A stretch of DNA of 57,599 nucleotides. Origin: Pseudomonas phage AAT-1. Where the stretch lies: the sequence record NC_073038.1; one strand, written 5' to 3'. How positions within the stretch are numbered: position 1 is the stretch's first letter; each line of letters opens with the position of its first letter. Both the position numbers and the translations under genes were made by a program. Of this stretch, positions 4,592-14,684 are shown piece after piece. The notes under the pieces are model-generated. The model searched no databases. It worked only from the letters and a program-made list of their open reading frames with translations, and was not told the origin of the DNA.

Positions 4592-6121
4592 ATGGCCGAC
4601 GGACCCAAGAAGAAGGCGACGGTTGCGACCCCGTCGTCTGCCTACCAGCGGATGTATCCGCGCTGGCGAATGATCGACGTCCTCCTGGGCGGCACTGAGG
4701 CCATGCGCGCGGCGGGCACCGAGTTCTTGCCCCAGTACGACAACGAGTCCAACAAGAACTATGCCGCGCGCCTGGCCCGCGCGACCCTGCTCAACATGAC
4801 CGAGCAGACGCTTGACACCATCGCAGGCAAGCCCTTCCGTGAGCAGGTGGTGCTTGGGGACGACGTGCCGCCACAGATCGAGGAGATGACCGAGGACGTG
4901 GACATGCAGGGCAACAACCTGCACGCGTTCTGCCGCACCTGGTTCCGCGAGGCCTGGGCGAAGGGCCTGTCCCACGTGCTCGTGGAGCACCCGACCCCGG
5001 AGGAGCGGGTCGACCCTGACACGGGCGAGACTCTCCCACGCACCCTGGCGGACGACCGCGCGGACGGGCTGCGCCCGTACTGGGTGCACGTCAAGCCCGA
5101 GTGCCTCATCGCAGCGTACTCTATGGTGGTCAACGGCCGCGAGGTCCTGACCCACGTCCGCATCCGCGAGACCACTGTGGAGCGGGTGGACTGGGACGAG
5201 GTAGAGGTGCAGCGCGTCCGCGTACTGGAGCCTGGACGTTGGGAGCTCTGGGCGCCGGACGATAAGGGCGAGGAGTGGCATGTCGAAGACGAGGGCTTCA
5301 CGGCCCTGGACTACGTGCCGCTTGTCACGTTCTACGCGGGCAAGCGCTCCGGCCTCATGGAGTGCAAGCCCCCGCTGACCGACCTGGCCCACCTCAACGT
5401 GGCCCACTGGCAGTCCTCGAGCGACCAGCGCAACGTCCTCACCGTGTCGCGCTTCCCGCTGCTTGCTGCCTCCGGCGTGCCCGCGGACCAGAAGGTGACG
5501 ATCGGCCCCAACAACTTCCTGACGACCGAGGCCGCGGACGGCAAGTGGTACTACGTCGAGCACACCGGCGCGGCTATCAAGGCCGGCGCAGAGGACCTCA
5601 CCTCGCTTGAGGACCAGATGGCCACCTACGGCGCCGAGTACATGCGGAAGCGCCCCGGGGACCAGACAGCTACTGGCAGGGCGCTAGACTCTGCGGAGTC
5701 CTCGTCCTACCTGGCGTCCACTGTGCGCGACTTCCAGGACTGCGTCGAGCTCGCCATGCAGTATACGGCCGACTGGCTTGGCCTCGACGAGGGCGGATCG
5801 GTGCGGATCAACGCGGACGTCGACCTCAGCGAGGCGGACGCGGCGGAGCTGGACGCGCTGCTCAAGATGCGTGCCCAGCGTGACATCTCCCGCAAGACGC
5901 TGCTCGACGAGATGCAGAAGCGCTCCGTGCTGTCCGACGACTTCGACGAGGAGGCGGACGCGGAGCTGCTAGCCGATGAGGGCAAGAATACCCTAGGCGA
6001 CATGTTCGGAGGCGGCAACGGCACTACCAGTCCGCTGCCGGCCGCCCCGGCCGCCCCGGCCGCGGGCCTGGAGGACGAGGACGAGGACTTGCCCACCAAC
6101 ACGCCCCCGGCTCAGGAGTAA
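4592..6121 (+). CDS. Portal protein (DUF4055-type)
   Basis: N-terminal YPRW...LLGGTEAMRAAG..FLP...NESN..Y..RL.RA pattern matches DUF4055 portals. Acidic C-terminus. Lies immediately upstream of the MuF-like gene, as in SPP1. Confidence 0.7.
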   Translation: MADGPKKKATVATPSSAYQRMYPRWRMIDVLLGGTEAMRAAGTEFLPQYDNESNKNYAARLARATLLNMTEQTLDTIAGKPFREQVVLGDDVPPQIEEMTEDVDMQGNNLHAFCRTWFREAWAKGLSHVLVEHPTPEERVDPDTGETLPRTLADDRADGLRPYWVHVKPECLIAAYSMVVNGREVLTHVRIRETTVERVDWDEVEVQRVRVLEPGRWELWAPDDKGEEWHVEDEGFTALDYVPLVTFYAGKRSGLMECKPPLTDLAHLNVAHWQSSSDQRNVLTVSRFPLLAASGVPADQKVTIGPNNFLTTEAADGKWYYVEHTGAAIKAGAEDLTSLEDQMATYGAEYMRKRPGDQTATGRALDSAESSSYLASTVRDFQDCVELAMQYTADWLGLDEGGSVRINADVDLSEADAAELDALLKMRAQRDISRKTLLDEMQKRSVLSDDFDEEADAELLADEGKNTLGDMFGGGNGTTSPLPAAPAAPAAGLEDEDEDLPTNTPPAQE

Positions 6122-6124
6122 CCC

Positions 6125-9100
6125 ATGGCCAAGACCGCGAACGAGGAGATTCTCGACGCTACGGTCCGCCACCAGATCAAGCTCCTGCGCTTCTCGCAGG
6201 GCGAGGCCAACATGGCCGCGTCCCTGTTGGCGGAGAGCGACGCGGAGCTGGTGGCGCTGATCCAGGCGGGCAACCTGACCGAGGCCAGCGAGGCGCGCCT
6301 GCGTGCCCTGCTGGCTGACGTGCGACGGCTCCGCTCCACCGTGGCCGAGCGTATCCAGTCGGAGCTCGAGGGCGACATGGAGGAGCTGGCGGCCACCGAG
6401 GCCGAGTGGGAGACGGCCATGCTGCAGGGCGCGACGCCCGTGGCTATGTCGTTCGCCTCCGTGCCTGTGACAACTCTCAAGGCCCTGTCGGCATCGCCCA
6501 TAAATGGTGTGCCGCTCGAGGGGTGGCTTGGCAAGATGGCGGTGAACGACGTCTCCCGTATAGAGCAGCAGCTACGCCTAGGCATCCTGGCCGGCGAGAC
6601 AAACGACCAGCTTGTGGCGCGCATCCGCGGCACGAAGGCGAACGGGTATAAAGACGGGGTGCTGGACATCACTCGGCGCGAGGCCGAGATGATCGCGCGC
6701 ACCGCGACCAACCATGTCTCGACGTCCGCACGGCAGGCCACCTGGGAGGCGAATGCCGACATCATCAGCGGCGTTCGGTGGGTGGCCACGCTCGATGGGC
6801 GGACCTCGCCTGTGTGCCAGTCCCGCGACGGCGAGGTATACTCCATCGACCGGGGACCGCGTCCGCCCGCGCACCCGAACTGCCGTTCAACCGTGGCGCC
6901 GGTGCTTGCCGGTGAGGAGATTGTCGGTGAGCGCCCGACCATCACTGACACCCGCACTCGTGCCCAGCGCGAGGTCGACTTCCGCGCCGAGGCGCGCGAG
7001 GCGGCAGGCGATAAGTGGAAGGGCATGAGCGAGGCGGAGCGCCGCGCGGCCATCAAGGCCCGCCGGGACAAGTGGGCTGACGAGAACATCGGCCAGGCAC
7101 CCACCTCCACGAACTACGAGAAGTGGCTACGCGGGCAGTCCAAGGAGTTCCAGGACGACGTACTTGGCAAGGGCAAGGCCCAGCTTTTCCGCGACGGCAT
7201 GCCTCTCGACAAGTTCGTGGACGAGAAGGGTAAACCGTACTCGCTGCAGCAGCTCAAGGCCGAGCTGGAGGGCGACAAGCTCAACGTGGTGCAGCCGGGC
7301 GTCGGCCTGAAGGCCAAGTCCCTGCTGCAGCAGGGCCTCTCCAACCAGCAGGTGCTTGACCAGATCAAGGCGGAGTACCCTGACGCCAGCACGTCGATCG
7401 CGTCGATCGCGTCCTACAAGTCGGAGCTGAACAAGGCCGGCGCACTGAGCCTGCCGGACGTCGGCAAGGTGCCGACCGGGGCCCTGGCGCAGGCCAAGAA
7501 CGTCAAGGCCGTGGTGGAGAACCTGGAGCAAGCACTACCGGCTAACGTCAAGCACGCCGTTGGCGGGCAGTGGTCCACGGTGGTCGAGGACCTGGACGGG
7601 GCGCCCGGGGTCTACGGCTACTACCAAGCCGGCAAGGGCGTGACGCTGAGCGGCAAGAAGCTGGCGGCGGTATCGACCGCGCAGGCCCAGCAGGCCGTGG
7701 CGCACGAGCTCGGGCACCTGCTGCACAAGCAGCACGACCTGCTACTCCCTGACGAAGTTCTGGCAGCCTTGAAGGCCTCGGCAAAGGGCCTGCCTCCGGA
7801 TGCCCGGAAGCTCTACTCGTACTATCTGAGCAGCGCAGACGAGCTCGTCGCTGAGGTCTACGCCCAGGCGCTCAGCCCGAGCGCGCTGACATCTCAGGGC
7901 CTGAGCGCCTTGGAGTTCAACAAGGCCTTTGGTCCTGCCATCGAGGCGGCCAAGAAGGCGATGGCGGACAAGTTCCCGATGCCTGCCGCGGCGGCCAAGA
8001 CGCCGCTGCCAGGCGGCCCCGTGTTACCCTTCGAGGTAGCTGGCAAGCACACGACGGTCGGCTCGCTGTCCAAGGCTCTGCTGCAACAGGGCATGCCGGA
8101 CGAGCAGGTGCTGCAGTCCGTGCTCGCTGAGTTCCCTGAGGCCAAGACCAAGCTGGCGTCCATCCAGAGCTACAAGTCGCAGCTCAAGAAGGAGGGCCTA
8201 CTGCCCAACAAGGCCTCCGGGCCGGTGGTGCAGCCGAAGGTCATCCCGGACGTGGCGCCAGTACCTGCCAGCGCAGAGGTAGCGGCAGCAGCGCCCGACG
8301 TCGTGGCCGCAGTTCCCTCGGCCGTGCAGCTGACGGCGGCCGAGCTCAAGGCCAAGGGGATGGAGCTACTCAAGCAGGGTGTGCTGGGCAACTCCGACGT
8401 GGCGACCACGCTCGACAAGATGTTCCCGCTTAACGCCGGGCAGGCGAAGCCCAGCACTGTGGCGACCTGGAAGAGCCTGTGGAAGAAGGCCGACCCGGAG
8501 GGATACGCGAAGGCCAGCGCCCTTGCGGAGAAGTCCACGGTCAAGGCAGCAGTCTCCGGCCCGGTAGCGCCGCCTAAGCTGCTAGGCCAGAAGCTTGGCG
8601 CCGTGTCGACTAAGGCCCTGGAGAAGGTCAAGTCGGTCGTCGCGGCTGGTGGCTCGGTGGACGAGGCGTACGCCGCCATGAAGTCGGTCTTCGGCTCAGT
8701 GCAGGAGCCCGGCGCCTCTGACCTGCTGGAGCTGGCCAAGTACCAGGTCGCGTCGGCCAAGGCCGCCGGTAAGCCCTACTTGGATGCCGCCTTCACTACG
8801 CCCAAGGGCTACGTCGCAAACCCCAAGATCGAGAGCTACGTCGCAAACCTGGACGCCAAGGGCAAGGCCGCGCTCGAGGCCTACAAAGAGGCCAAGGCCA
8901 AGGGCTTTGGCGTCGTCAAGACCAACAAGCTGGTGAAGGCCAAGGCGGGATACGAACCGTCGGCATCGGCCAAGGTGAAGTTGAAGGAGGCGGCTGACTA
9001 CGAGCTGACCAAGGCGGGCACGCCGATCCTCGAGCCGTACAGCCCGGCGGCCAAGGCAGCTCAGAAAGCCTCGCCGTCCGTCGCGCCGATACCGCCTACC

Positions 9101-9733
9101 GAGAAGGTGGACCTCACGCCAGTCCGTCCGGCTTCTACCCCACGCGACGGGCTGCCACCGCCTCCACGCTTCAACTCCCAGCAACGCGCTGCAGGAGTTC
9201 GCAAGTTCGCCGGCCGGGTCGAGACGTCCACGCTCAACTCCATGAACGCGCAGCAGCAGCGGCTCGGACTGCCCGAGCTAACGGCGGAGGAGGCGGCCGC
9301 GATTCGGTCGTATACTGGCAACACGTACCGGGCGCTGAACGACGCGCTCCGGTCGGGTAGGTACGCGTCAGACATGCACCTGCAGGCCTACGTAGATGCT
9401 GCCCAGCATGGACTCGCAAAGATGCCGAAGTTCGTGGGTCGGTCAGCCCGCGGTATGTCGTTTGGGGAGGCAGAGCTCAAGAAGGTGCTCGCGACCTACC
9501 GCAAGGGAGCTGTCGTCGAGGACTCGGCCTTCGTGTCGTCCTCGTACGGTGAGCAGGCGGCCTTCGGGGGCAATGTGTTCCTGCAGATCAACGGGAAGAC
9601 AGGGGTCAATATCTCCAGCTTCTCAAAGTACGGCGGCGAGCGTGAGGTACTGTTCATGCCTGGCACCCGCTTCAGGGTGGACGACGTGGTGCAGACCAAT
9701 GGTAAGTACGTGATAACTGTGACGGAGGTATAA
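6125..9733 (+). CDS. MuF-like (SPP1 gp7 family) minor head protein fused to a C-terminal C2/C3/VIP2-type mono-ADP-ribosyltransferase toxin domain
   Basis: 1202 aa. Mu-F motif VATLDGRTSPVCQSRDGEVY...HPNCRST. Middle part carries 3 copies of a roughly 35-aa helix-loop-helix module. C-terminus has LTAEEAAAIRSYTGNTYRALNDALR (NAD-binding helix), FVGRS (Arg), FVSSSYG (STS) and GGEREVLFMPGTRFRV (ExE ARTT loop plus EVL.PrGt.F.V). Confidence 0.8.
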   Translation: MAKTANEEILDATVRHQIKLLRFSQGEANMAASLLAESDAELVALIQAGNLTEASEARLRALLADVRRLRSTVAERIQSELEGDMEELAATEAEWETAMLQGATPVAMSFASVPVTTLKALSASPINGVPLEGWLGKMAVNDVSRIEQQLRLGILAGETNDQLVARIRGTKANGYKDGVLDITRREAEMIARTATNHVSTSARQATWEANADIISGVRWVATLDGRTSPVCQSRDGEVYSIDRGPRPPAHPNCRSTVAPVLAGEEIVGERPTITDTRTRAQREVDFRAEAREAAGDKWKGMSEAERRAAIKARRDKWADENIGQAPTSTNYEKWLRGQSKEFQDDVLGKGKAQLFRDGMPLDKFVDEKGKPYSLQQLKAELEGDKLNVVQPGVGLKAKSLLQQGLSNQQVLDQIKAEYPDASTSIASIASYKSELNKAGALSLPDVGKVPTGALAQAKNVKAVVENLEQALPANVKHAVGGQWSTVVEDLDGAPGVYGYYQAGKGVTLSGKKLAAVSTAQAQQAVAHELGHLLHKQHDLLLPDEVLAALKASAKGLPPDARKLYSYYLSSADELVAEVYAQALSPSALTSQGLSALEFNKAFGPAIEAAKKAMADKFPMPAAAAKTPLPGGPVLPFEVAGKHTTVGSLSKALLQQGMPDEQVLQSVLAEFPEAKTKLASIQSYKSQLKKEGLLPNKASGPVVQPKVIPDVAPVPASAEVAAAAPDVVAAVPSAVQLTAAELKAKGMELLKQGVLGNSDVATTLDKMFPLNAGQAKPSTVATWKSLWKKADPEGYAKASALAEKSTVKAAVSGPVAPPKLLGQKLGAVSTKALEKVKSVVAAGGSVDEAYAAMKSVFGSVQEPGASDLLELAKYQVASAKAAGKPYLDAAFTTPKGYVANPKIESYVANLDAKGKAALEAYKEAKAKGFGVVKTNKLVKAKAGYEPSASAKVKLKEAADYELTKAGTPILEPYSPAAKAAQKASPSVAPIPPTEKVDLTPVRPASTPRDGLPPPPRFNSQQRAAGVRKFAGRVETSTLNSMNAQQQRLGLPELTAEEAAAIRSYTGNTYRALNDALRSGRYASDMHLQAYVDAAQHGLAKMPKFVGRSARGMSFGEAELKKVLATYRKGAVVEDSAFVSSSYGEQAAFGGNVFLQINGKTGVNISSFSKYGGEREVLFMPGTRFRVDDVVQTNGKYVITVTEV

Positions 9734-9734
9734 G

Positions 9735-10022
9735 ATGGCAGGAGACACCGTGGACCGCAGCTTCGAGCCTGGGCCAGACTGGGATGACAAGACGTCCTTC
9801 GCCCCAGGAGTGCCGGACGACCCCGATGCTGTGCCAGAGCTGCTCTACCAGGTGCTGCTCGGCAAGGTCTTCACCCTTACGCGATGGCGCGACGGGTCCA
9901 CCGCACGCGGTGAGGTCGCGCTAGCCGACCTGGAGGCAGTCGCCGGCGGGCCGGTGGCTAAGGAGGGGTGGTACGATGCTCTCGGCAAGTATGTCGGGGC
10001 TGAGTTGCCCGGCTCTCTATGA
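9735..10022 (+). CDS. Hypothetical protein (candidate immunity/antagonist for the ART domain)
   Basis: 95 aa ORF directly downstream of the toxin-domain gene. GGAGG SD. Role inferred from position only. Confidence 0.4.
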   Translation: MAGDTVDRSFEPGPDWDDKTSFAPGVPDDPDAVPELLYQVLLGKVFTLTRWRDGSTARGEVALADLEAVAGGPVAKEGWYDALGKYVGAELPGSL

Positions 10023-10321
10023 TGAGGGACAGGCTCCATGACCGGGTGCTGCGCCTAGTCTCCGCCGTCAGGGAGTCGAGGTCTGACTCCGTCCAGGCGT
10101 ACACGCAGGGTGGATGCTACCAGTTCTTCCTGGTCCTGCGCGCTGCCTTTCCTGGCGCCGTTCCATACTACGACGGCGTGCAGGGGCACGTGCTGACCAG
10201 AATCGGAGGCCGGCTGTACGACGTGACCGGCGAGGTCCGCTGCCCGCAGGCCTACCCGCTCTCCCGCGAGCCGCGCATAGCGAGGCAGGCACATCGCTGG
10301 CAATACCGCAGCCACGCTTGA
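10019..10321 (+). CDS. Hypothetical protein
   Basis: 100 aa, ATGA-coupled to the upstream ORF. Confidence 0.4.
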   Translation: MMRDRLHDRVLRLVSAVRESRSDSVQAYTQGGCYQFFLVLRAAFPGAVPYYDGVQGHVLTRIGGRLYDVTGEVRCPQAYPLSREPRIARQAHRWQYRSHA

Positions 10322-10424
10322 ATGCTGGCTCACGATGCGCCGGCGCCCACGGTAAGGTGCCGGCAGTATGTCAACCCGGGCGCGATGCCCAACAATCGCG
10401 CGTGATGCGCAGAAGGAGAGAATA

Positions 10425-11201
10425 ATGGACTTCGAGTTCCTGAAGAACCCCACCGTGGACAGCCTGGACAATGTGCCCGAGCAATTCCGCGGCCTGTACG
10501 CCGAGGGCGAGGGCGGTTACGTCCTGAACGACGGCTTCAAGGGTGTTGCCACCGCGGTGGACGGCCTGAACAAGTCCCTCAAGGCCGCGCGCCGTGATGC
10601 GGACGAGGCCAAGCGCAACCGCCCCGACGTGTCGGGCTTCGCCGCGGTCGGCCAGCTGCTCGGCATCGAGGGCGACGACGCCACGAACGCAGACGCCCTG
10701 CGTACGGCCGTCGAGAAGGTCATCTCCGAGTCCAAGGACGGCAAGGTCAACTGGGACAAGATGAAGAAGGACCTCGAGCGGGGATTCCAGGCCCAGCTGC
10801 AGACCAAGGACGGCGAGCTGCAGACCATGAACAAGACCCTGCAGAAGTACCTGGTGACCACGGCCGCCGTGCAGGCGATCGCCGGCCACAAGGGCGTGCC
10901 CGAGCTGCTGCTCCCGCATATCCAGGCCAAGACCAAGGTCATCAAGGAGGGCGAGGAGTACGTCGTCCGCGTGGTCGACGAGAGCGGCGACCCGCGCGGC
11001 AACGCCTCCGGCGGCTTCATGACCGTTGAGGACCTGGTCAAGGAGATGAAGGCCAGCCCGACCTTCGGCCGCGCCTTCGAGAGCGAGGCACCTGCCGGCT
11101 CGGGCGTCAAGCCCGGCTCGACCCAGCAGAAGCCTGCCCAGAAGGGCCGCGAGCTGTCGCCGACCGAGAAGATCGCCGCGGGCCTCGCGAAGCGTCGCTG
11201 A
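10425..11201 (+). CDS. Capsid scaffolding protein (putative)
   Basis: Starts MDFEFLKNP after a GAAGGAGAG SD (the ORF-track start at 10368 lacks an SD). Helical, charged composition. Sits between the head-morphogenesis and capsid genes. Confidence 0.55.
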   Translation: MDFEFLKNPTVDSLDNVPEQFRGLYAEGEGGYVLNDGFKGVATAVDGLNKSLKAARRDADEAKRNRPDVSGFAAVGQLLGIEGDDATNADALRTAVEKVISESKDGKVNWDKMKKDLERGFQAQLQTKDGELQTMNKTLQKYLVTTAAVQAIAGHKGVPELLLPHIQAKTKVIKEGEEYVVRVVDESGDPRGNASGGFMTVEDLVKEMKASPTFGRAFESEAPAGSGVKPGSTQQKPAQKGRELSPTEKIAAGLAKRR

Positions 11202-11276
11202 CCGTCAAGCCCCCACTGATTGCGGGAAACAGTCGTGGGGCAACCCTCCACCGTCCTGGCGGAGGACCTACAAGAA

Positions 11277-11303
11277 GGGGAGCCAACCGGCTCCCCTTTT
11301 CTC
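11277..11303. terminator. Bidirectional intrinsic terminator between scaffold (+) and NADAR (-) genes
   Basis: ggggagcc-aacc-ggctcccc followed by ttttctc on +. The hairpin also sits directly 3' of the minus-strand gene. Confidence 0.6.
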
Positions 11304-11811
11304 ATTCCGCGTGCGGGCAGGTCGAGCACGACATGGGCAGCATCTGCTCTCGCAGGTCAGTCAGCACCTGCCCAAGCCAGTTACGCCCGCGCCAGCGTTC
11401 ACGGTTGTGCACGCGCGGGTCGTCCTCCGCCAGGCCGACTCCCCAGATGACGTCGGTCGGGCTGGCCTCGACGAGCACGGTGCCTTCGGTGAGCAGCAGC
11501 TTGGCACGTAGCTTCGGGTCGCTCGAGAACTTCGCGAGGCTGGCCCGCATCACGACATCGCGCGCCACGGTCTCCCAGGTCCGGACGTCGAACCCGCGCA
11601 CCAGCTTGCCAAGGCGCTTCTGCTGCGCCGGGTCGTCCGTCGACATGATGGCCCTCAGGGCAGCGTCGTCCCCGAACAGCCGGGCCTTCTGAGCCATCAT
11701 GTACTGCTCGGCGCAGGAGTAGGTCACGCCGTCTACTACCATCGGGGACGGGTACCACTGGCTAAACACGCCGCCGTAGAACGGCGTGAACTTTTCACTA
11801 TTGTTGGGCAT
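11302..11811 (-). CDS. NADAR (YbiA-like, DUF1768) domain protein
   Basis: 169 aa. SCAEQYMMAQKARLFGD plus ...DVIWGVG... match the YbiA/NADAR fold signature. Confidence 0.75.
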   Translation of the reverse strand: MPNNSEKFTPFYGGVFSQWYPSPMVVDGVTYSCAEQYMMAQKARLFGDDAALRAIMSTDDPAQQKRLGKLVRGFDVRTWETVARDVVMRASLAKFSSDPKLRAKLLLTEGTVLVEASPTDVIWGVGLAEDDPRVHNRERWRGRNWLGQVLTDLREQMLPMSCSTCPHAE

Positions 11812-11867
11812 CTAAGTCCCCTCCAGGTTGTGGCGGCCTGGCCGACCGCCGATCTACAGTTTAACGC

Positions 11868-12740
11868 TCACAGACGGCGCGACGTAGCCGGTGCAGGCTG
11901 CACCTCGTGCACCGACACTGCCTGCAGGACGAAGAACTTCTCTCCGCGGCTTACTCCCGCAAGACGCTGAGCCTCGCGCTCGGCGTCACGGCACGAGGAC
12001 TGGACGGTGACCGGCGGCTTCTTGAGCTGGGGCTTGCCGTGTGGGCCACCCTTCATGCAGTCACCTGAGGCCACGAGGAAGAAGCGCTGGTCATCCAGTG
12101 TGCTGGTGTTGCGCTCACCGGCCCAGGACGTGCTCGCCGACCCGCCCGACGTCGAGGTCTTACCCAGCACGGCCTCCACAAGAGCGCGCCCGTCGTCAGT
12201 GAGGTCAGGCTGCCGGCCACCGTGGCCGACCGTGGCGAGGCCCTCCGCCACCAGGTGGGCGAGGTCGGGGCCCGACGTGCCGACCCTCAGCTCGTTCTCG
12301 TAGGTCCCGCGGTAGAGCGCGAGCAGGGCCATCATGCGGTTGGCGGTCATCTTCATGGTCTTCTCCTTGGTTGGTTCGCGGAAGTCGTCTGCTGGGTTAT
12401 TGAGCCCGAGGTGCGACAGCCGCATCTCGATGGCGATGTGGGTGCGGCCGTGTCGCTCGGCAAGCTCGGCCACTGGCATCCCGTGGCGACAGTATGCCTC
12501 CTTAAGGTCCCAATCCTCCTGCTGATTCCAGCGGGCCCCATTACGTGGGGCGGTGGAAGTGGGCGTGCCACCAGAGGTAGACCAACCCAGAAGCGGGGTC
12601 GCCGACGGCTTCGCACTCAGCGAAGGCGGCGTCCTCGGCTCTGGTCCTGAGGCAACCGGGTCTCCCGTGGTACGGGCGAAGAGCGACTCGTCAAAGTCGT
12701 ACTCGTCACCTATCCCGTTTACTAAATCCCAATCGGGCAT
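11868..12740 (-). CDS. Hypothetical protein with Myb/SANT-like HTH region
   Basis: 290 aa. WNQQEDWDLKEAY...GMPVAELAERHGRTHIAIEMRLSHLGL resembles a SANT/Myb-type helix-turn-helix. The rest is unassigned. Confidence 0.4.
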   Translation of the reverse strand: MPDWDLVNGIGDEYDFDESLFARTTGDPVASGPEPRTPPSLSAKPSATPLLGWSTSGGTPTSTAPRNGARWNQQEDWDLKEAYCRHGMPVAELAERHGRTHIAIEMRLSHLGLNNPADDFREPTKEKTMKMTANRMMALLALYRGTYENELRVGTSGPDLAHLVAEGLATVGHGGRQPDLTDDGRALVEAVLGKTSTSGGSASTSWAGERNTSTLDDQRFFLVASGDCMKGGPHGKPQLKKPPVTVQSSCRDAEREAQRLAGVSRGEKFFVLQAVSVHEVQPAPATSRRL

Positions 12741-12753
12741 ATCGACTCTCCTA

Positions 12754-13299
12754 TCAGATAGTTGTCAGGGCCATCCACTCGGGCTGATCGCCCAGGCGGT
12801 ACTCGGCGATCGCGGACTTCTCCACGCGGTAGTAGGCGCGGTAGGCGGCCACCGGATCGGCTTGGCGGTACTGCTCGGGCATCGCGAGGGCGAACGGCGT
12901 CATGGCGTCGGGCCGATCGGCGCAAGCTTTGACGAGCGCACGGGGCGGGTTGCGCAGGACGGGCAGCACGTCCCATGTCTTGTGGCGCTTCTTGGCGCAG
13001 TCGCCGTAGCGGCGCTGGTACTCGTGCAGGAGGGCTTCGAGCAACGAGCAAGTCCAGCGGTAATTGCCGACGGCCTCGCGCACCCACACGGCGCACGGGT
13101 GGTTGGCGTGGGTGGGGTGGTACACGCGCTGGCCTCGCACCTCGAAGCAGTTGCGGGCCTCAGAGTATACGGCCTCACCAAAGTGGGCGTGGGCCGTGCT
13201 GAGCAGCTGGGCCGTCTCGAGCACCATCTTGACGACGTGCTTGTCGCAATGGGCTCGGGCGGCCAGCCGCGGGTTGCGGTCTAGCACGAACAGGTTCAT
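12754..13299 (-). CDS. Hypothetical protein (conserved His/Cys: AHCDKH, HPCAVW)
   Basis: 181 aa with protein-like composition. No confident family assignment. Confidence 0.45.
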   Translation of the reverse strand: MNLFVLDRNPRLAARAHCDKHVVKMVLETAQLLSTAHAHFGEAVYSEARNCFEVRGQRVYHPTHANHPCAVWVREAVGNYRWTCSLLEALLHEYQRRYGDCAKKRHKTWDVLPVLRNPPRALVKACADRPDAMTPFALAMPEQYRQADPVAAYRAYYRVEKSAIAEYRLGDQPEWMALTTI

Positions 13300-13361
13300 C
13301 TTGTTCTCCTAGTTTGTTGCGCCAAGGGTATGATGCGCCCAACTTGGGGCGCGCCATGCCA

Positions 13362-13658
13362 TCAATTGAGGGGCTTGGTCATCAGCTCCTTGGCCTCGTC
13401 CCACGAGGCATTCCAAAGGTCGACCCCCCAGTCGGGCATGCCGTCCTCGTCGTCCGGCAGCGCCACCACGCCGAGCGAGGCGAGGGCCTCGTCCATCGTC
13501 ATATTGGCGTCGCAGTAGTCGTGGGAGTAGCAGACTCCGGCGATGGGCTTCTCGCGTTGTAGGCGGCAGACCTCGGCGAAGTTCTCCTCGCCAATGTCCT
13601 CGCGCAGCTGCTTGATGAAGGCATGAGCCACTTGGCTCGTGGTGGGCGTGTTGGTCAT
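13362..13658 (-). CDS. Hypothetical small protein (CYSHDYCDANM motif)
   Basis: Start chosen at MTNTPTT with a GAGGAG SD. The supplied ORF extends further 5' with a non-coding-like N-terminus. Confidence 0.45.
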   Translation of the reverse strand: MTNTPTTSQVAHAFIKQLREDIGEENFAEVCRLQREKPIAGVCYSHDYCDANMTMDEALASLGVVALPDDEDGMPDWGVDLWNASWDEAKELMTKPLN

Positions 13659-13668
13659 TGCGGTCTCC

Positions 13669-13881
13669 TCAGAGGTCAAGTAGGTCGAGGCCGTCGTCAT
13701 AGGACGGCAATTCCCAATGGTCGGTGTGCTTCTTGCGGCCGTCGGCCGTGATAGCGATGAGGGTAGATTCATCGCCCAGCGTGGGGTGCTCGTAGAGGTC
13801 CACGCCGTGCACCCGGCCGATGAGGGTCGGGTTCTTGGCAAGAAAAGCCTTTGCCTTGTCGGTAGTTGGCTTGTTGGTCAT
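13669..13881 (-). CDS. Hypothetical small protein
   Basis: Start at MTNKPTT with an AAGGAG SD. Its 5' end and RBS are near-identical to those of the gene at 13658. Confidence 0.45.
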   Translation of the reverse strand: MTNKPTTDKAKAFLAKNPTLIGRVHGVDLYEHPTLGDESTLIAITADGRKKHTDHWELPSYDDGLDLLDL

Positions 13882-13891
13882 TGCGGTCTCC

Positions 13892-14119
13892 TTAGAAGGC
13901 AGTTGCCTTGATGTCGTCGGCGTAGGACTTGTAGGGCAGGTAGTGGGCACGCATCTTCGCCATCGCGCCGCGCTCGGTTGTGGCGTTGCCGATGATCTTG
14001 GCTATCTCCTCGTCAGAGTAACACTCGACGACGGCGTCCCAGCCCTTCTCGTAGTTGCGGATGGCGTGGGCCTTGATGTGCTGCACCAGCTCGGCGGTGG
14101 TCTTGGTCTCTTGTGCCAT
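13892..14119 (-). CDS. Hypothetical small protein (first gene of leftward accessory operon)
   Basis: Start at MAQETKTT with a GGAG SD. Lies directly downstream of the conserved promoter element. Confidence 0.45.
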   Translation of the reverse strand: MAQETKTTAELVQHIKAHAIRNYEKGWDAVVECYSDEEIAKIIGNATTERGAMAKMRAHYLPYKSYADDIKATAF

Positions 14120-14141
14120 GTTCGTGCTCCAGTTGTTTGCG

Positions 14142-14185
14142 TCGATGGGGTAATAATAGCGGGAAGAAGGTATCACTGGAGCCCC
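14142..14185 (-). promoter_or_regulatory. Conserved leftward promoter-like element P1 (GGGGCTCC..N..CTATTATTACCCCATCGA on minus strand)
   Basis: One of 4 copies sharing a GGGRGCTCCC box, a TATWAT -10-like hexamer and a CCCATCGA box, each 20-45 nt upstream of a minus-strand start codon. Confidence 0.5.
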
Positions 14186-14400
14186 TTGTTTAGATTATTT
14201 TTTATATTTTCTAGGGATGATTGATAATCTAAACCTATCTAAACCACCATCTAAGGCAGCAGGCAGTCTGCAGTCCTTGTCCGGCAAGGCTATCTGGACC
14301 TTCTGGACCTTCTAGGGCATCTCTCGACGCCGTGGCCGACCGTGGCCGGCTTGTCGGGTGTTCGTTTTCCTGGCGCAACACGGTCGAAAAGGCTCGTGCG
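14186..14400. promoter_or_regulatory. AT-rich regulatory region A
   Basis: About 30% GC stretch in a 65% GC genome. TCTAAACC x2 at 14221-14241 (+). ATCTGGACC x2 (inverse of GGTCCAGAT) and CTAGGGCATCT at 14290-14325. CGTGGCCGA direct repeats at 14326-14348. A roughly 40-bp block at 14351-14392 is homologous (inverted) to 54262-54300. Confidence 0.5.
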
Positions 14401-14684
14401 GCCCAAAATCAGCCTAAGGCCTTGGTGCGCAAGGCTTTTCGTGTACGAGCCTGGTTTTTACGGGGTCCAGAAGGCTCGTATAGCCACAACGTTGGCATAG
14501 GTTCATGGGGTTACGGGCCGCACGGGCTGCAGCATTATCCGCTCCATAGCGTGCGAGCGCGGACGACGTCCGAGCCCGCGCTCGCTGACCCGGCAGAGGC
14601 GTGACGCCCGGCAAGGGGTCGAATCGTCGGGCGATCCGGCACCAAACCAAGCACCACTTTCAACCTCTGTCTAGGAGAAATACC

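What the first reader, a model, noticed from the sequence alone, without database searches (positions are those of the whole stretch)
6125..10321. MuF-family head protein carrying a C-terminal C2/C3-type ADP-ribosyltransferase, followed by two small candidate immunity genes
The 1202-aa ORF joins an SPP1-gp7/Mu-F head-morphogenesis domain to a complete R-S-E ART catalytic core: LTAEEAAAIRSYTGNTYRALNDALR, FVGRS, FVSSSYG, and GEREVLFMPGTRFRV. The ExE motif predicts arginine-directed mono-ADP-ribosylation. MuF proteins travel in the capsid, so the ART is plausibly an injected effector (Alt-like) or a MuF polymorphic-toxin module. The two downstream ORFs (9735..10022, 10019..10321) are in the classic immunity position. 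A NADAR (ADP-ribose-processing) gene sits 1.5 kb away in a leftward operon, suggesting a write/erase pair.
Basis: partly seen in the sequence, partly recalled or inferred. Interest (0 to 1): 0.7.

Follow-up and report, generated by a model that had tools for sequence, protein, structure and literature searches.

The report
Phage head protein carrying injected ADP-ribosyltransferase
This is the minor head protein of Pseudomonas phage AAT-1 fused to a zinc-protease-like domain and an ADP-ribosylating toxin, always paired with one small partner gene; the fusion is already published for sister phages, so only the partner gene and the protease domain are new details.

Summary
ORF 6125..9733 (1202 aa) has an SPP1-gp7/Mu-F core and a C-terminal R-S-ExE ADP-ribosyltransferase (ART) whose closest solved relative is Tre1. 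The window appears to be lytic Pseudomonas phage AAT-1. The fusion is already published for this genus: AXL1 gp16 was described as MuF + VIP2 ART, found in purified virions by mass spectrometry and compared with T4 Alt.

My additions:
1. ORF 9735..10022 is an obligate partner of this ART subclade. It follows the ART in every locus examined, usually with overlapping stop/start codons. It is missing where the ART is missing and replaced by unrelated small ORFs where the toxin domain differs. That is the toxin/immunity signature.
2. ORF 10019..10321 (YunG-like) is unrelated to the ART.
3. NADAR co-occurs often but is absent from at least five ART-bearing lineages, sits on the other strand and is only known to act on nucleic-acid bases. 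The write/erase link is weak.
4. The middle of the protein holds a conserved anthrax-lethal-factor/Pro-Pro-endopeptidase-like zincin domain, and an invariant GLPPPPRF tract precedes the ART.

Verdict: new member of a known kind (MuF toxin plus immunity; polyvalent virion effector). Moderate interest.

The parts
4592..6121 (+). Portal protein gene (context: the MuF gene follows it directly, as in SPP1-type head modules)
   Evidence: Pfam DUF4055 E=2.5e-36; PHROG 145 portal E=2.6e-145
6125..9733 (+). 1202-aa minor head protein: MuF core, then helical repeats, zincin domain, linker and ART
   Evidence: ORF; PHROG 21789 'virion structural protein' over the full length, 2561 bits; more than 70 full-length orthologues
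6125..7309 (+). SPP1-gp7/Mu-F core (aa 1-~395); the ART-less relatives PaMx74 and DoCa5 end here
   Evidence: Pfam and TIGR01641 hits; alignment A2; loci L003 and L004
7289..7444 (+). First copy of a ~45-aa helical repeat 'LLQQG..QVL..(Y/F)P.A.T..ASI.SYKS.L.K.G'; further copies at 8051-8206 (clear), 8330-8494 and 8594-8764 (weaker). Function unknown
   Evidence: MAFFT alignment of the four segments; PHROGs 17205 and 38698 each match two stretches
7475..7972 (+). Zincin metallopeptidase-like domain of the anthrax lethal factor / Pro-Pro endopeptidase fold (aa ~451-616). HExxH = H527-E528-x-x-H531 (nt 7703-7717); predicted third zinc ligand E577 (nt 7853-7855)
8807..9124 (+). Lys/Ala/Pro-rich, indel-rich variable linker (aa ~895-1000)
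   Evidence: Large deletions and insertions among orthologues in alignment A2; composition
9149..9172 (+). Conserved 'GLPPPPRF' tract (aa 1009-1016) at the linker/ART boundary; candidate processing site (inferred only)
   Evidence: A G-x-PPPP-R-F/Y tract lies ~191 aa from the C-terminus in 56 of 57 ART-bearing orthologues and is also present in remote loci
9251..9724 (+). R-S-ExE ADP-ribosyltransferase domain (aa 1043-1200). R1109 = nt 9449-9451; S1138-S1140 = nt 9536-9544; E1172-R-E1174 = nt 9638-9646
   Evidence: Pfam ART and ADPrib_exo_Tox; Tre1 alignment; invariant residues R109, G110, S138, S140, E172 and E174 in alignment A3
9724..9737 (+). Coupling junction: GGAGG (9724-9728) inside the last ART codons, TAA stop (9731-9733), ATG of the partner gene (9735)
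   Evidence: Sequence; equivalent overlapping junctions (TGATG, TAATG) in remote loci
9735..10022 (+). 95-aa acidic protein (17 acidic against 8 basic residues; PHROG 20070, unknown function). Obligate partner of this ART subclade; predicted non-enzymatic inhibitor/immunity protein
   Evidence: Same 38 phage records as the ART. Downstream of the ART in all 24 IMG/VR loci with a homologous ART and in L005, L013, L016-L019 and L047. Absent from PaMx74 and DoCa5. Replaced by unrelated ORFs after divergent toxins. Not listed in AXL1 virion MS
10368..11201 (+). Head scaffolding protein gene (context)
   Evidence: PHROG 206 E=1.2e-46
11302..11811 (-). YbiA-type NADAR gene; a frequent but facultative companion, and its link to the ART is not established
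   Evidence: Pfam NADAR E=3e-49; TIGR02464 160 bits. Same 38 phage records as the ART, but absent in L020, L032-34, L041, L043 and L047

Best explanation
The gene encodes the SPP1-gp7/Mu-F-type minor head protein of a PaMx28-like siphophage (apparently AAT-1). It has been extended by about 800 residues into a 'polyvalent' cargo protein. In order, the parts are: MuF core, ~45-aa helical repeats, a lethal-factor/Pro-Pro-endopeptidase-like zincin domain, a variable linker, a GLPPPPRF tract, and an R-S-ExE ADP-ribosyltransferase (ART).

Shown here or in the literature:
- The domains and their catalytic residues are intact and conserved.
- The orthologue in phage AXL1 is a virion component.

Inferred:
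- The MuF core anchors the protein at the portal inside the capsid.
- The protein leaves with the DNA at the next infection.
- The ART then mono-ADP-ribosylates arginine residues of host proteins, acting like T4 Alt or Bxa.
- The zincin domain probably processes the polyprotein. One possibility is cleavage at or near the conserved poly-proline tract to free the ART. This step is speculative.

The 95-aa acidic protein encoded by the translationally coupled ORF 9735..10022 is the cognate partner of this ART subclade. Most likely it is a non-enzymatic inhibitor, functionally like Bsi of the Bxa system. It would keep the newly made ART silent in the producer cell during late gene expression and would stay out of the virion.

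The YunG-like ORF is an unrelated insertion. The NADAR is more likely a DNA-directed counter-defence enzyme than the ART's eraser.
For: Domains and catalytic residues.

Identity of the phage and its lytic report: 97% identity to phiH1, and the window length equals the published AAT-1 genome.

Virion presence of the orthologue: AXL1 gp16 gave 48 peptides and 48% coverage, while gp17 and gp19 are not listed.

The class is known:
- MuF fused to Alt/VIP2 ARTs is predicted to be head-packaged and injected.
- Bxa and Apk2 are MuF toxins neutralised by an adjacent small binder plus an enzymatic eraser.

Partner gene:
- It occurs in the identical 38 phage records as the ART.
- It follows the ART in all 24 IMG/VR loci with a homologous ART.
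- It follows the ART in all remote metagenomic loci, where ART identity is 37-50%. Stop and start codons overlap in four of these; in L047 they share a coordinate in the gene calls.
- It is absent together with the ART in PaMx74 and DoCa5.
- Unrelated small ORFs follow ARTs of 30% or lower identity and a Zeta-toxin MuF.

Zincin domain.

PPPP tract.
Against: - No biochemical data exist for this clade. The target, the arginine specificity and the injection step are all inferred.
- AAT-1 is reported as lytic, so the usual rationale for an immunity gene (protecting a lysogen or its kin) does not apply directly.
- The partner protein is at least as conserved as the ART (for example 84% against 72% in Xoo-sp2). 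Fast-evolving immunity proteins usually behave differently. An assembly or chaperone role would fit this equally well.
- Its AF2 model (pLDDT 77) has no significant structural neighbour.
- A complex prediction could not be run.
- The window's own zincin block is below Pfam thresholds, and Foldseek found nothing significant.
- One orthologue (P0172) keeps the PPPP tract, the ART and the partner gene but lacks HExxH. Zincin-mediated cleavage at PPPP therefore cannot be obligatory.
- The published MS data do not say whether the ART end of gp16 is in the virion.
Confidence: 0.6

Rival explanations
1. ORF 9735 is not an inhibitor. It is a dedicated chaperone or packaging adaptor that keeps the ART domain, or the long extension, soluble or unfolded so it can be incorporated into procapsids.
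For: - It is strictly co-inherited and translationally coupled with the ART.
- It is highly conserved rather than fast-evolving.
- It sits between the MuF gene and the scaffold gene in the head-assembly module.
- The phage is reported as lytic, so self-protection is less obviously needed.
Against: - It tracks the ART subtype, not the MuF core, the zincin domain or the linker. It persists with P0172, which lacks HExxH, and it is replaced when the toxin changes.
- Characterised MuF toxins (Bxa, Apk2) use adjacent small ORFs as inhibitors.
- The protein is strongly acidic, while the ART domain has a net basic composition.
Confidence: 0.2
2. NADAR is the ART's cognate enzymatic eraser, so the system is a write/erase pair analogous to Bxa-BAH or YarT-YbiA. 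This would mean either that the ART modifies nucleic-acid bases, or that this YbiA-type NADAR removes Arg-ADP-ribose.
For: - In cultured phages, NADAR orthologues (at least 56% identity) occur in exactly the 38 records that carry the ART, and both are missing from PaMx74 and DoCa5 (also noted in PMC9206674).
- Dual immunity (binder plus eraser) is the rule for the characterised MuF toxins.
- An ART-YbiA toxin-antitoxin pair is known.
Against: - A sensitive profile found no NADAR in L020 (ART 83% identical, 8.8 kb of downstream sequence), L032-34, L041, L043 or L047. All of these keep the ART and ORF 9735.
- A rough 2x2 count (about 20 with NADAR and 5 without among ART-bearing loci; 0 with and 2 without among ART-less relatives) gives p of about 0.06 by my own hand calculation, ignoring phylogeny.
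- NADAR lies on the opposite strand, in a separate cassette beyond the scaffold gene.
- The activities described in the NADAR papers read here are on guanine/cytidine ADP-ribose, and phage NADARs act as anti-DarT1 factors.
- The ART has ExE and Tre1/SpvB/ExoS-type relatives, not QxE/pierisin-type ones.
Confidence: 0.17
3. The protein is a classical MuF polymorphic toxin used for inter-bacterial competition. It would be released at lysis or induction to kill non-immune neighbours, rather than being an effector that helps the phage's own infection.
For: - The architecture and the toxin/immunity cassette swapping match the MuF toxin family.
- The relative DLP4 was reported to lysogenise its host.
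Against: - Jamet et al. found MuF toxins exclusively in temperate phages, mostly of Firmicutes. AAT-1 is reported lytic, and no integrase or repressor was found in DLP4.
- No route of entry into a neighbouring cell is known other than the virion itself.
- A lytic phage gains nothing from protecting kin cells.
Confidence: 0.08

Closest known systems
Stenotrophomonas phage AXL1 gp16 and the other Pamexvirus/Bradleyvirinae 'minor head proteins' (McCutcheon et al. 2022, PMC9206674)
   Same: Direct orthologue (about 75% identity over the full length). It was already described as Phage_Mu_F plus a VIP2 ART, detected in virions by MS and compared with T4 Alt. The paper states that all Pamexvirus phages except PaMx74 carry the fusion and a YbiA gene.
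   Different: In the passages read here, that paper does not name the downstream 90-aa gene as a partner, and its mentions of the zincin domain and the PPPP tract were not searched for. It leaves the function open.
Bxa-Bsi-BAH of Bacteroides prophage PhiBxa, and the Apk2 MuF toxins (Alexei et al. 2024, PMC11699363)
   Same: A MuF N-terminus with a C-terminal arginine-specific ART that is toxic in bacteria. It is neutralised by an adjacent small non-enzymatic binder plus an enzymatic eraser, and related MuFs carry other toxins.
   Different: - The PHROG match to Bxa is weak (E=5e-8, no individually significant stretch).
- The host phage there is a prophage.
- The eraser there is an ARH1-family hydrolase encoded next to the toxin. 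Here the only ADP-ribose hydrolase is a facultative YbiA-type NADAR on the other strand.
- ORF 9735 matches no family in Pfam, NCBIfam or PADLOC.
- A zincin domain in Bxa was not looked for here.
T4 Alt (head-packaged, injected ART)
   Same: An R-S-E ART delivered from the capsid with the DNA that modifies host proteins at the start of infection. Works-like comparison, based.
   Different: Alt is not a MuF fusion. By recall, it is targeted by a capsid-targeting sequence and trimmed by the prohead protease. No prohead protease gene lies between the portal and major head genes of this window or in the annotated PaMx28 locus. No partner inhibitor is known for Alt.
Tre1-Tri1 (Serratia T6SS effector; PDB 6DRE/6DRH)
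   Same: Closest solved sequence relative of the ART domain (E=3.4e-17), with the same aromatic/Ala-R-G, S-T/S-S and ExE motifs. By recall (Ting et al. 2018, not retrievable here), Tre1 ADP-ribosylates arginine in FtsZ.
   Different: It is delivered by T6SS through a PAAR domain. By recall, its immunity protein Tri1 is an ARH-type hydrolase that also occludes the active site. ORF 9735 is unrelated to it.
Polyvalent proteins with zincin-like MPTase domains (Iyer et al. 2017, PMC5512222) and Certhrax (PDB 4FXQ)
   Different: [quoted passage not shown] This protein combines one with an MPTase-like domain.
- By recall, Certhrax's lethal-factor-like domain is a non-catalytic PA-binding module. Here the HExxH...E motif is intact.

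Membership tests
SPP1 gp7 / Mu F minor head protein family | Profile match above the curated threshold | tested here: met
   PF04233 52.9 bits (cutoff 29.6); TIGR01641 62.1 bits (cutoff 39.65)
SPP1 gp7 / Mu F minor head protein family | Gene lies immediately after the portal gene in the head module | tested here: met
   Portal 4592..6121, then MuF 6125..9733, then scaffold 10368..11201
SPP1 gp7 / Mu F minor head protein family | Protein is present in virions and released with the DNA | not testable with these tools
   Virion presence is published for the orthologue AXL1 gp16. Ejection has not been tested in this clade
R-S-E (C2/C3/VIP2/Tre1-type) arginine ADP-ribosyltransferases | ART fold profile match | tested here: met
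   PF01129 E=6e-15; PF03496 E=1.2e-11; Tre1 E=3.4e-17
R-S-E (C2/C3/VIP2/Tre1-type) arginine ADP-ribosyltransferases | Catalytic Arg, S-T/S-S motif and ExE motif are present and conserved | tested here: met
   R1109, S1138-S1140 and E1172/E1174 align to Tre1 and are invariant across 10 sequences down to 46% identity
R-S-E (C2/C3/VIP2/Tre1-type) arginine ADP-ribosyltransferases | NAD-dependent transfer of ADP-ribose to arginine | not testable with these tools
   Inferred from the ExE motif and the nearest relatives only
MuF polymorphic toxin / immunity systems (Jamet 2017; Bxa, Apk2) | Conserved MuF N-terminus with interchangeable C-terminal toxin domains | tested here: met
   Related MuF cores carry this ART, other ARTs, Zeta_toxin or no extension
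MuF polymorphic toxin / immunity systems (Jamet 2017; Bxa, Apk2) | A small ORF immediately downstream that co-varies with the toxin type | tested here: met
   The ORF 9735 family follows every ART of at least 37% identity. Unrelated ORFs follow more distant ARTs and the Zeta toxin
MuF polymorphic toxin / immunity systems (Jamet 2017; Bxa, Apk2) | Encoded by temperate phages or prophages | tested here: inconclusive
   AAT-1 is reported lytic. DLP4 is reported to lysogenise, but no integrase or repressor was found. I did not scan the whole window for lysogeny genes
MuF polymorphic toxin / immunity systems (Jamet 2017; Bxa, Apk2) | The toxin is toxic and is neutralised by the downstream protein | not testable with these tools
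Polyvalent proteins with zincin-like MPTase (Iyer 2017) | Zincin fold with HExxH on one helix and a Glu on the following helix | tested here: met
Polyvalent proteins with zincin-like MPTase (Iyer 2017) | Autoproteolytic processing of the polyprotein | not testable with these tools
   Only a conserved candidate site (GLPPPPRF) was identified
ART-NADAR toxin/antitoxin pairs (DarT1-NADAR, YarT-YbiA) | ART and NADAR are encoded in one operon and strictly co-occur | tested here: not met
   Opposite strands, separated by the scaffold gene. NADAR is absent in L020, L032-34, L041, L043 and L047, which all keep the ART
ART-NADAR toxin/antitoxin pairs (DarT1-NADAR, YarT-YbiA) | ART belongs to a nucleic-acid-targeting clade (DarT / H-Y-E, or QxE pierisin-type) | tested here: not met
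   R-S-ExE motifs and no pierisin, Scabin or DarT hits
Tre1-Tri1 type effector/immunity | Immunity protein is an ARH (DraG-like) ADP-ribosylhydrolase | tested here: not met
   ORF 9735 has no Pfam, NCBIfam or PADLOC family and no structural neighbour

The most novel reading that the evidence does not exclude
The module could be a three-layer, self-regulating injected weapon.
1. The ORF 9735 protein plugs the ART in the producer cell.
2. After injection, the lethal-factor/Pro-Pro-endopeptidase-like zincin cuts the invariant GLPPPPRF tract and frees the ART from its MuF anchor.
3. The YbiA-type NADAR acts as a second, enzymatic safeguard that reverses the ART's product.

The third step would require either a new NADAR activity on Arg-ADP-ribose, or an ExE ART that modifies nucleic-acid bases.

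A corollary: the fusions P0061 and P0086 (an unrelated ~175-aa domain plus an ORF 9735-like domain) could be host proteins that reuse the immunity domain to sense incoming phage ARTs.
Probability: 0.12. Interest if true: 0.7.

Novelty: new member of a known kind. Interest (0 to 1): 0.4.

Why it matters
Capsid-delivered enzymes let a phage act on its host before any phage gene is expressed. T4 Alt is the textbook case, and MuF-toxin fusions are its widespread but barely studied counterpart. This clade infects Pseudomonas, Stenotrophomonas and Xanthomonas, which are phage-therapy and biocontrol targets, and it is culturable.

The comparative data give three concrete things to test:
- a previously unannotated partner/immunity family (PHROG 20070);
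- a precise catalytic triad to mutate;
- a candidate self-processing protease and its candidate cut site.

If the partner is an inhibitor, it would be the first reported immunity protein for a MuF toxin in phages described as lytic. That would explain how a phage can make a promiscuous toxin late in infection without damaging its own burst.

The basic fusion is not a discovery, because it is already published.

Tried and rejected
- Word-index homologue search with the middle region alone: zero hits although orthologues exist. This is a technical limitation of the index, not biology.
- Foldseek of the ORF 9735 model against PDB: nothing significant, best E=0.2.
- DarT-like neighbour of the fusion P0086: only sub-threshold Pfam hits (19.4 bits against a 22.5 cutoff), with no PDB, NCBIfam or PADLOC support. 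Left as unproven.
- PADLOC and NCBIfam on ORF 9735, the YunG-like ORF and the fusion proteins: no families.
- Weak Pyr_excise hit of the NADAR operon neighbour 12754..13299: E=3e-4, below cutoff, and no PDB sequence match. Not used as evidence.
- Promoter/terminator scan of 9500..14500: no more sites than in shuffled sequence.
- AXL1 supplement: no peptide-level data to show whether the ART end of gp16 is packaged.
- Ting et al. 2018 (Tre1) could not be retrieved. Statements about Tre1's target rest on my recall and on the citation in PMC11699363.
- Rejected: the YunG-like ORF as an immunity gene.
- Rejected: 'FVGRS' as the catalytic Arg motif.
- A degenerate or inactive ART was considered and rejected, because all catalytic residues are invariant.

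Full report
**1. What is there**

ORF 6125..9733 (+) encodes 1202 aa. Profile searches give these matches:
- Phage_Mu_F at aa 145-257, E=7.5e-14.
- Two ART families at aa ~1043-1200: PF01129 E=6e-15 and PF03496 E=1.2e-11.
- TIGR01641 phageSPP1_gp7 above its cutoff.
- A full-length match to PHROG 21789 'virion structural protein', 2561 bits.

The C-terminal 202 aa hit solved ARTs. The best is Tre1 (6DRE/6DRH, E=3.4e-17), followed by XopAI, Vis, SpvB, ExoT/S and Vip2.

The catalytic Arg needs correcting. It is R1109 ('sARGm' aligned to Tre1 'tYRGt'), not the Arg in 'FVGRS'. R1109 and G1110 are invariant in a 10-sequence alignment, and R1106 is not conserved. The triad is R1109 / S1138-S-S1140 / E1172-R-E1174. 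An ExE motif together with Tre1/SpvB/ExoS-type relatives predicts arginine specificity. That prediction rests on established knowledge of the family and was not tested here.

**2. Which genome, and what is already published**

The region is 97.3% identical to Pseudomonas phage phiH1 and is conserved, at 74-97% DNA identity, in 16 phage records. The window length of 57,599 bp equals that of lytic Pseudomonas phage AAT-1, a Pamexvirus.

The fusion is already in the literature.
- The AXL1 paper describes the orthologue gp16 (1192 aa) as Phage_Mu_F plus a VIP2 ART. It detects gp16 in CsCl-purified virions (48 peptides, 48% coverage) and compares it with T4 Alt. It states that every Pamexvirus except PaMx74 has both the fused ART and a YbiA gene.
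- MuF fused to Alt/VIP2-family ARTs is described as a class of head-packaged, host-injected effectors.
- MuF polymorphic toxins followed by small immunity ORFs were defined in 2017.
- For the prophage MuF-ART Bxa, arginine specificity, toxicity and two immunity proteins (the binder Bsi and the ARH1 hydrolase BAH) have been shown experimentally.

**3. The first small ORF (9735..10022) is a true partner of the ART**

Evidence from cultured phages:
- tblastn finds close ART orthologues in 38 phage records and ORF 9735 homologues in exactly the same 38.
- PaMx74 and DoCa5 have a MuF core about 60% identical that stops at ~397 aa. The scaffold gene follows directly, and they have neither the ART nor the small ORF.

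Evidence from metagenomes:
- An exhaustive profile search finds only 45 cluster representatives.
- For five remote stand-alone members whose upstream gene could be read, that gene ends in an ART domain. Pfam ART E-values run from 1e-7 to 1e-16, with 37-50% identity to AAT-1. Stop and start codons overlap in four of the five (TGATG, TAATG). In the window the junction is GGAGG-N2-TAA-G-ATG.
- In an IMG/VR scan, all 24 loci with a homologous ART (44-86% identity) have the small ORF downstream. It is immediately downstream in 23; in L043 it starts about 340 bp after the ART.
- The most divergent case, P0172 (ART 38% identical, no HExxH, no NADAR nearby), still has it at E=2e-13.
- MuF proteins with more distant ARTs (30% and 26% identity) or a Zeta-toxin domain are followed by unrelated small ORFs.

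This pattern, where the downstream gene swaps with the toxin subtype, is the signature of toxin/immunity cassettes.

Properties of the protein:
- It is acidic (17 acidic against 8 basic residues).
- Its N-terminal 30 residues are conserved but predicted to be disordered.
- It has a small beta/alpha core (AF2 pLDDT 77) with no significant structural neighbour.
- Its AXL1 orthologue gp17 is not among the virion proteins.

An inhibitor role is therefore the best reading.

**4. The second small ORF (10019..10321) is not linked to the ART**

It matches Phage_YunG-like (E=7.6e-29). Within this clade it is present only in AAT-1, phiH1, PA_LZ02 and phiH2. Otherwise it occurs in about 200 large myophages that do not carry this module.

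**5. NADAR**

NADAR orthologues (at least 56% identity) occur in the same 38 cultured-phage records as the ART and are missing from PaMx74 and DoCa5.

Several results weaken it:
- A sensitive profile finds no NADAR in L020 (ART 83% identical, 8.8 kb of downstream sequence), L032-34, L041, L043 or L047. All of these retain the ART and the partner gene.
- The gene is of the YbiA type (TIGR02464, 160 bits; PDB 8BAU and 2B3W).
- It lies on the opposite strand, in a separate cassette that interrupts the head module.
- The NADAR activities described in the papers read here are removal of ADP-ribose from guanine or cytidine bases. Phage NADARs counter DarT1. One ART-YbiA toxin-antitoxin pair exists, but its ART is of the H-Y-E type.

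I rate the write/erase link at about 0.17.

**6. The middle of the protein**

Residues ~451-616 are the best-conserved part of the extension.
- H527, E528 and H531 are at least 90% conserved, and E577 is invariant, in 30 orthologues down to 27% identity.
- The AF2 model is confident (pLDDT 88, pTM 0.84). It shows helices, a three-stranded sheet, a helix bearing HExxH and a later helix bearing the Glu.
- Two orthologues pass Pfam's Peptidase_M48 cutoff on this block. The window copy itself is sub-threshold.

This matches the 'zincin-like MPTase' proposed to autoprocess polyvalent proteins.

A G-x-PPPP-R-F/Y tract lies ~191 aa from the C-terminus in 56 of 57 ART-bearing orthologues. Because the nearest folds include Pro-Pro endopeptidases, cleavage there to release the ART is an attractive idea. 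It is untested. P0172 keeps the tract without HExxH, so such cleavage cannot be obligatory.

The remaining parts of the middle region are three or four ~45-aa helical repeats and an indel-rich Lys/Ala linker.

**7. Verdict**

The thing is a new member of a known kind. The fusion and its presence in virions are already published for the genus. The cognate partner family, the zincin domain with the PPPP tract, and the facultative nature of the NADAR are new but incremental.

Noticed in passing
window 7475-7972 (aa ~451-616 of the 1202-aa protein): A conserved HExxH...E domain with an anthrax-lethal-factor / Pro-Pro-endopeptidase-like zincin fold.
   Followed up: yes
window 9149-9172: An almost invariant 'GLPPPPRF' tract at a fixed distance (~191 aa) from the C-terminus in 56 of 57 ART-bearing orthologues. 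It could be a processing site or an N-terminal cap of the ART domain.
   Followed up: partly
window 7289-7444, 8051-8206, 8330-8494, 8594-8764: Three or four copies of a ~45-aa helical module ('LLQQG..QVL..FP.A.T..ASI.SYKS.L.K.G'). The same module matches several small stand-alone PHROGs of unknown function (17205, 34102, 38698).
   Followed up: partly
window 10019-10321: A Phage_YunG-like ORF whose start overlaps the stop of ORF 9735. Within this clade it is present only in the four closest relatives. Otherwise it is found in ~150-kb Kuttervirus-type myophages, so it looks like a recently inserted mobile small gene.
   Followed up: yes
window ~11302-14000 (minus strand): A leftward cassette (NADAR, a 290-aa protein, a 181-aa 'DNA binding protein' and small ORFs) interrupts the head module between the scaffold and major head genes. 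The cassette persists in PaMx74 and DoCa5 without NADAR. The 181-aa protein has a sub-threshold Pyr_excise hit that PDB search did not support.
   Followed up: partly
P0061 (L011 866-1666) and P0086 (L015 2823-3602): ~260-aa proteins that fuse an unrelated ~175-aa N-terminal domain to an ORF 9735-like C-terminal domain, outside any MuF context. P0061 sits next to a divergent HTH gene. P0086 sits near a 181-aa protein with sub-threshold DarT/DUF7002 hits. P0060 is a tandem duplication of the domain.
   Followed up: partly
P0166 (1822 aa), P0160 (1587 aa) and other long orthologues: Some orthologues are much longer. P0166 carries two ART domains (aa 767-922 and 1669-1821) in addition to the zincin block.
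   Followed up: no
L001 5475-5975 (PaMx28) compared with window 6121-6125: PaMx28 has an annotated endonuclease gene inserted between the portal and MuF genes, and AAT-1 does not. Related MuF proteins P0178, P0180 and P0184 carry intein/Hint domains. The portal-MuF region therefore looks like a hotspot for selfish elements.
   Followed up: no
L040 16335-17048 compared with the other loci: In one lineage the NADAR gene sits about 4 kb further from the scaffold gene than usual. NADAR therefore moves independently of the ART/partner pair.
   Followed up: no
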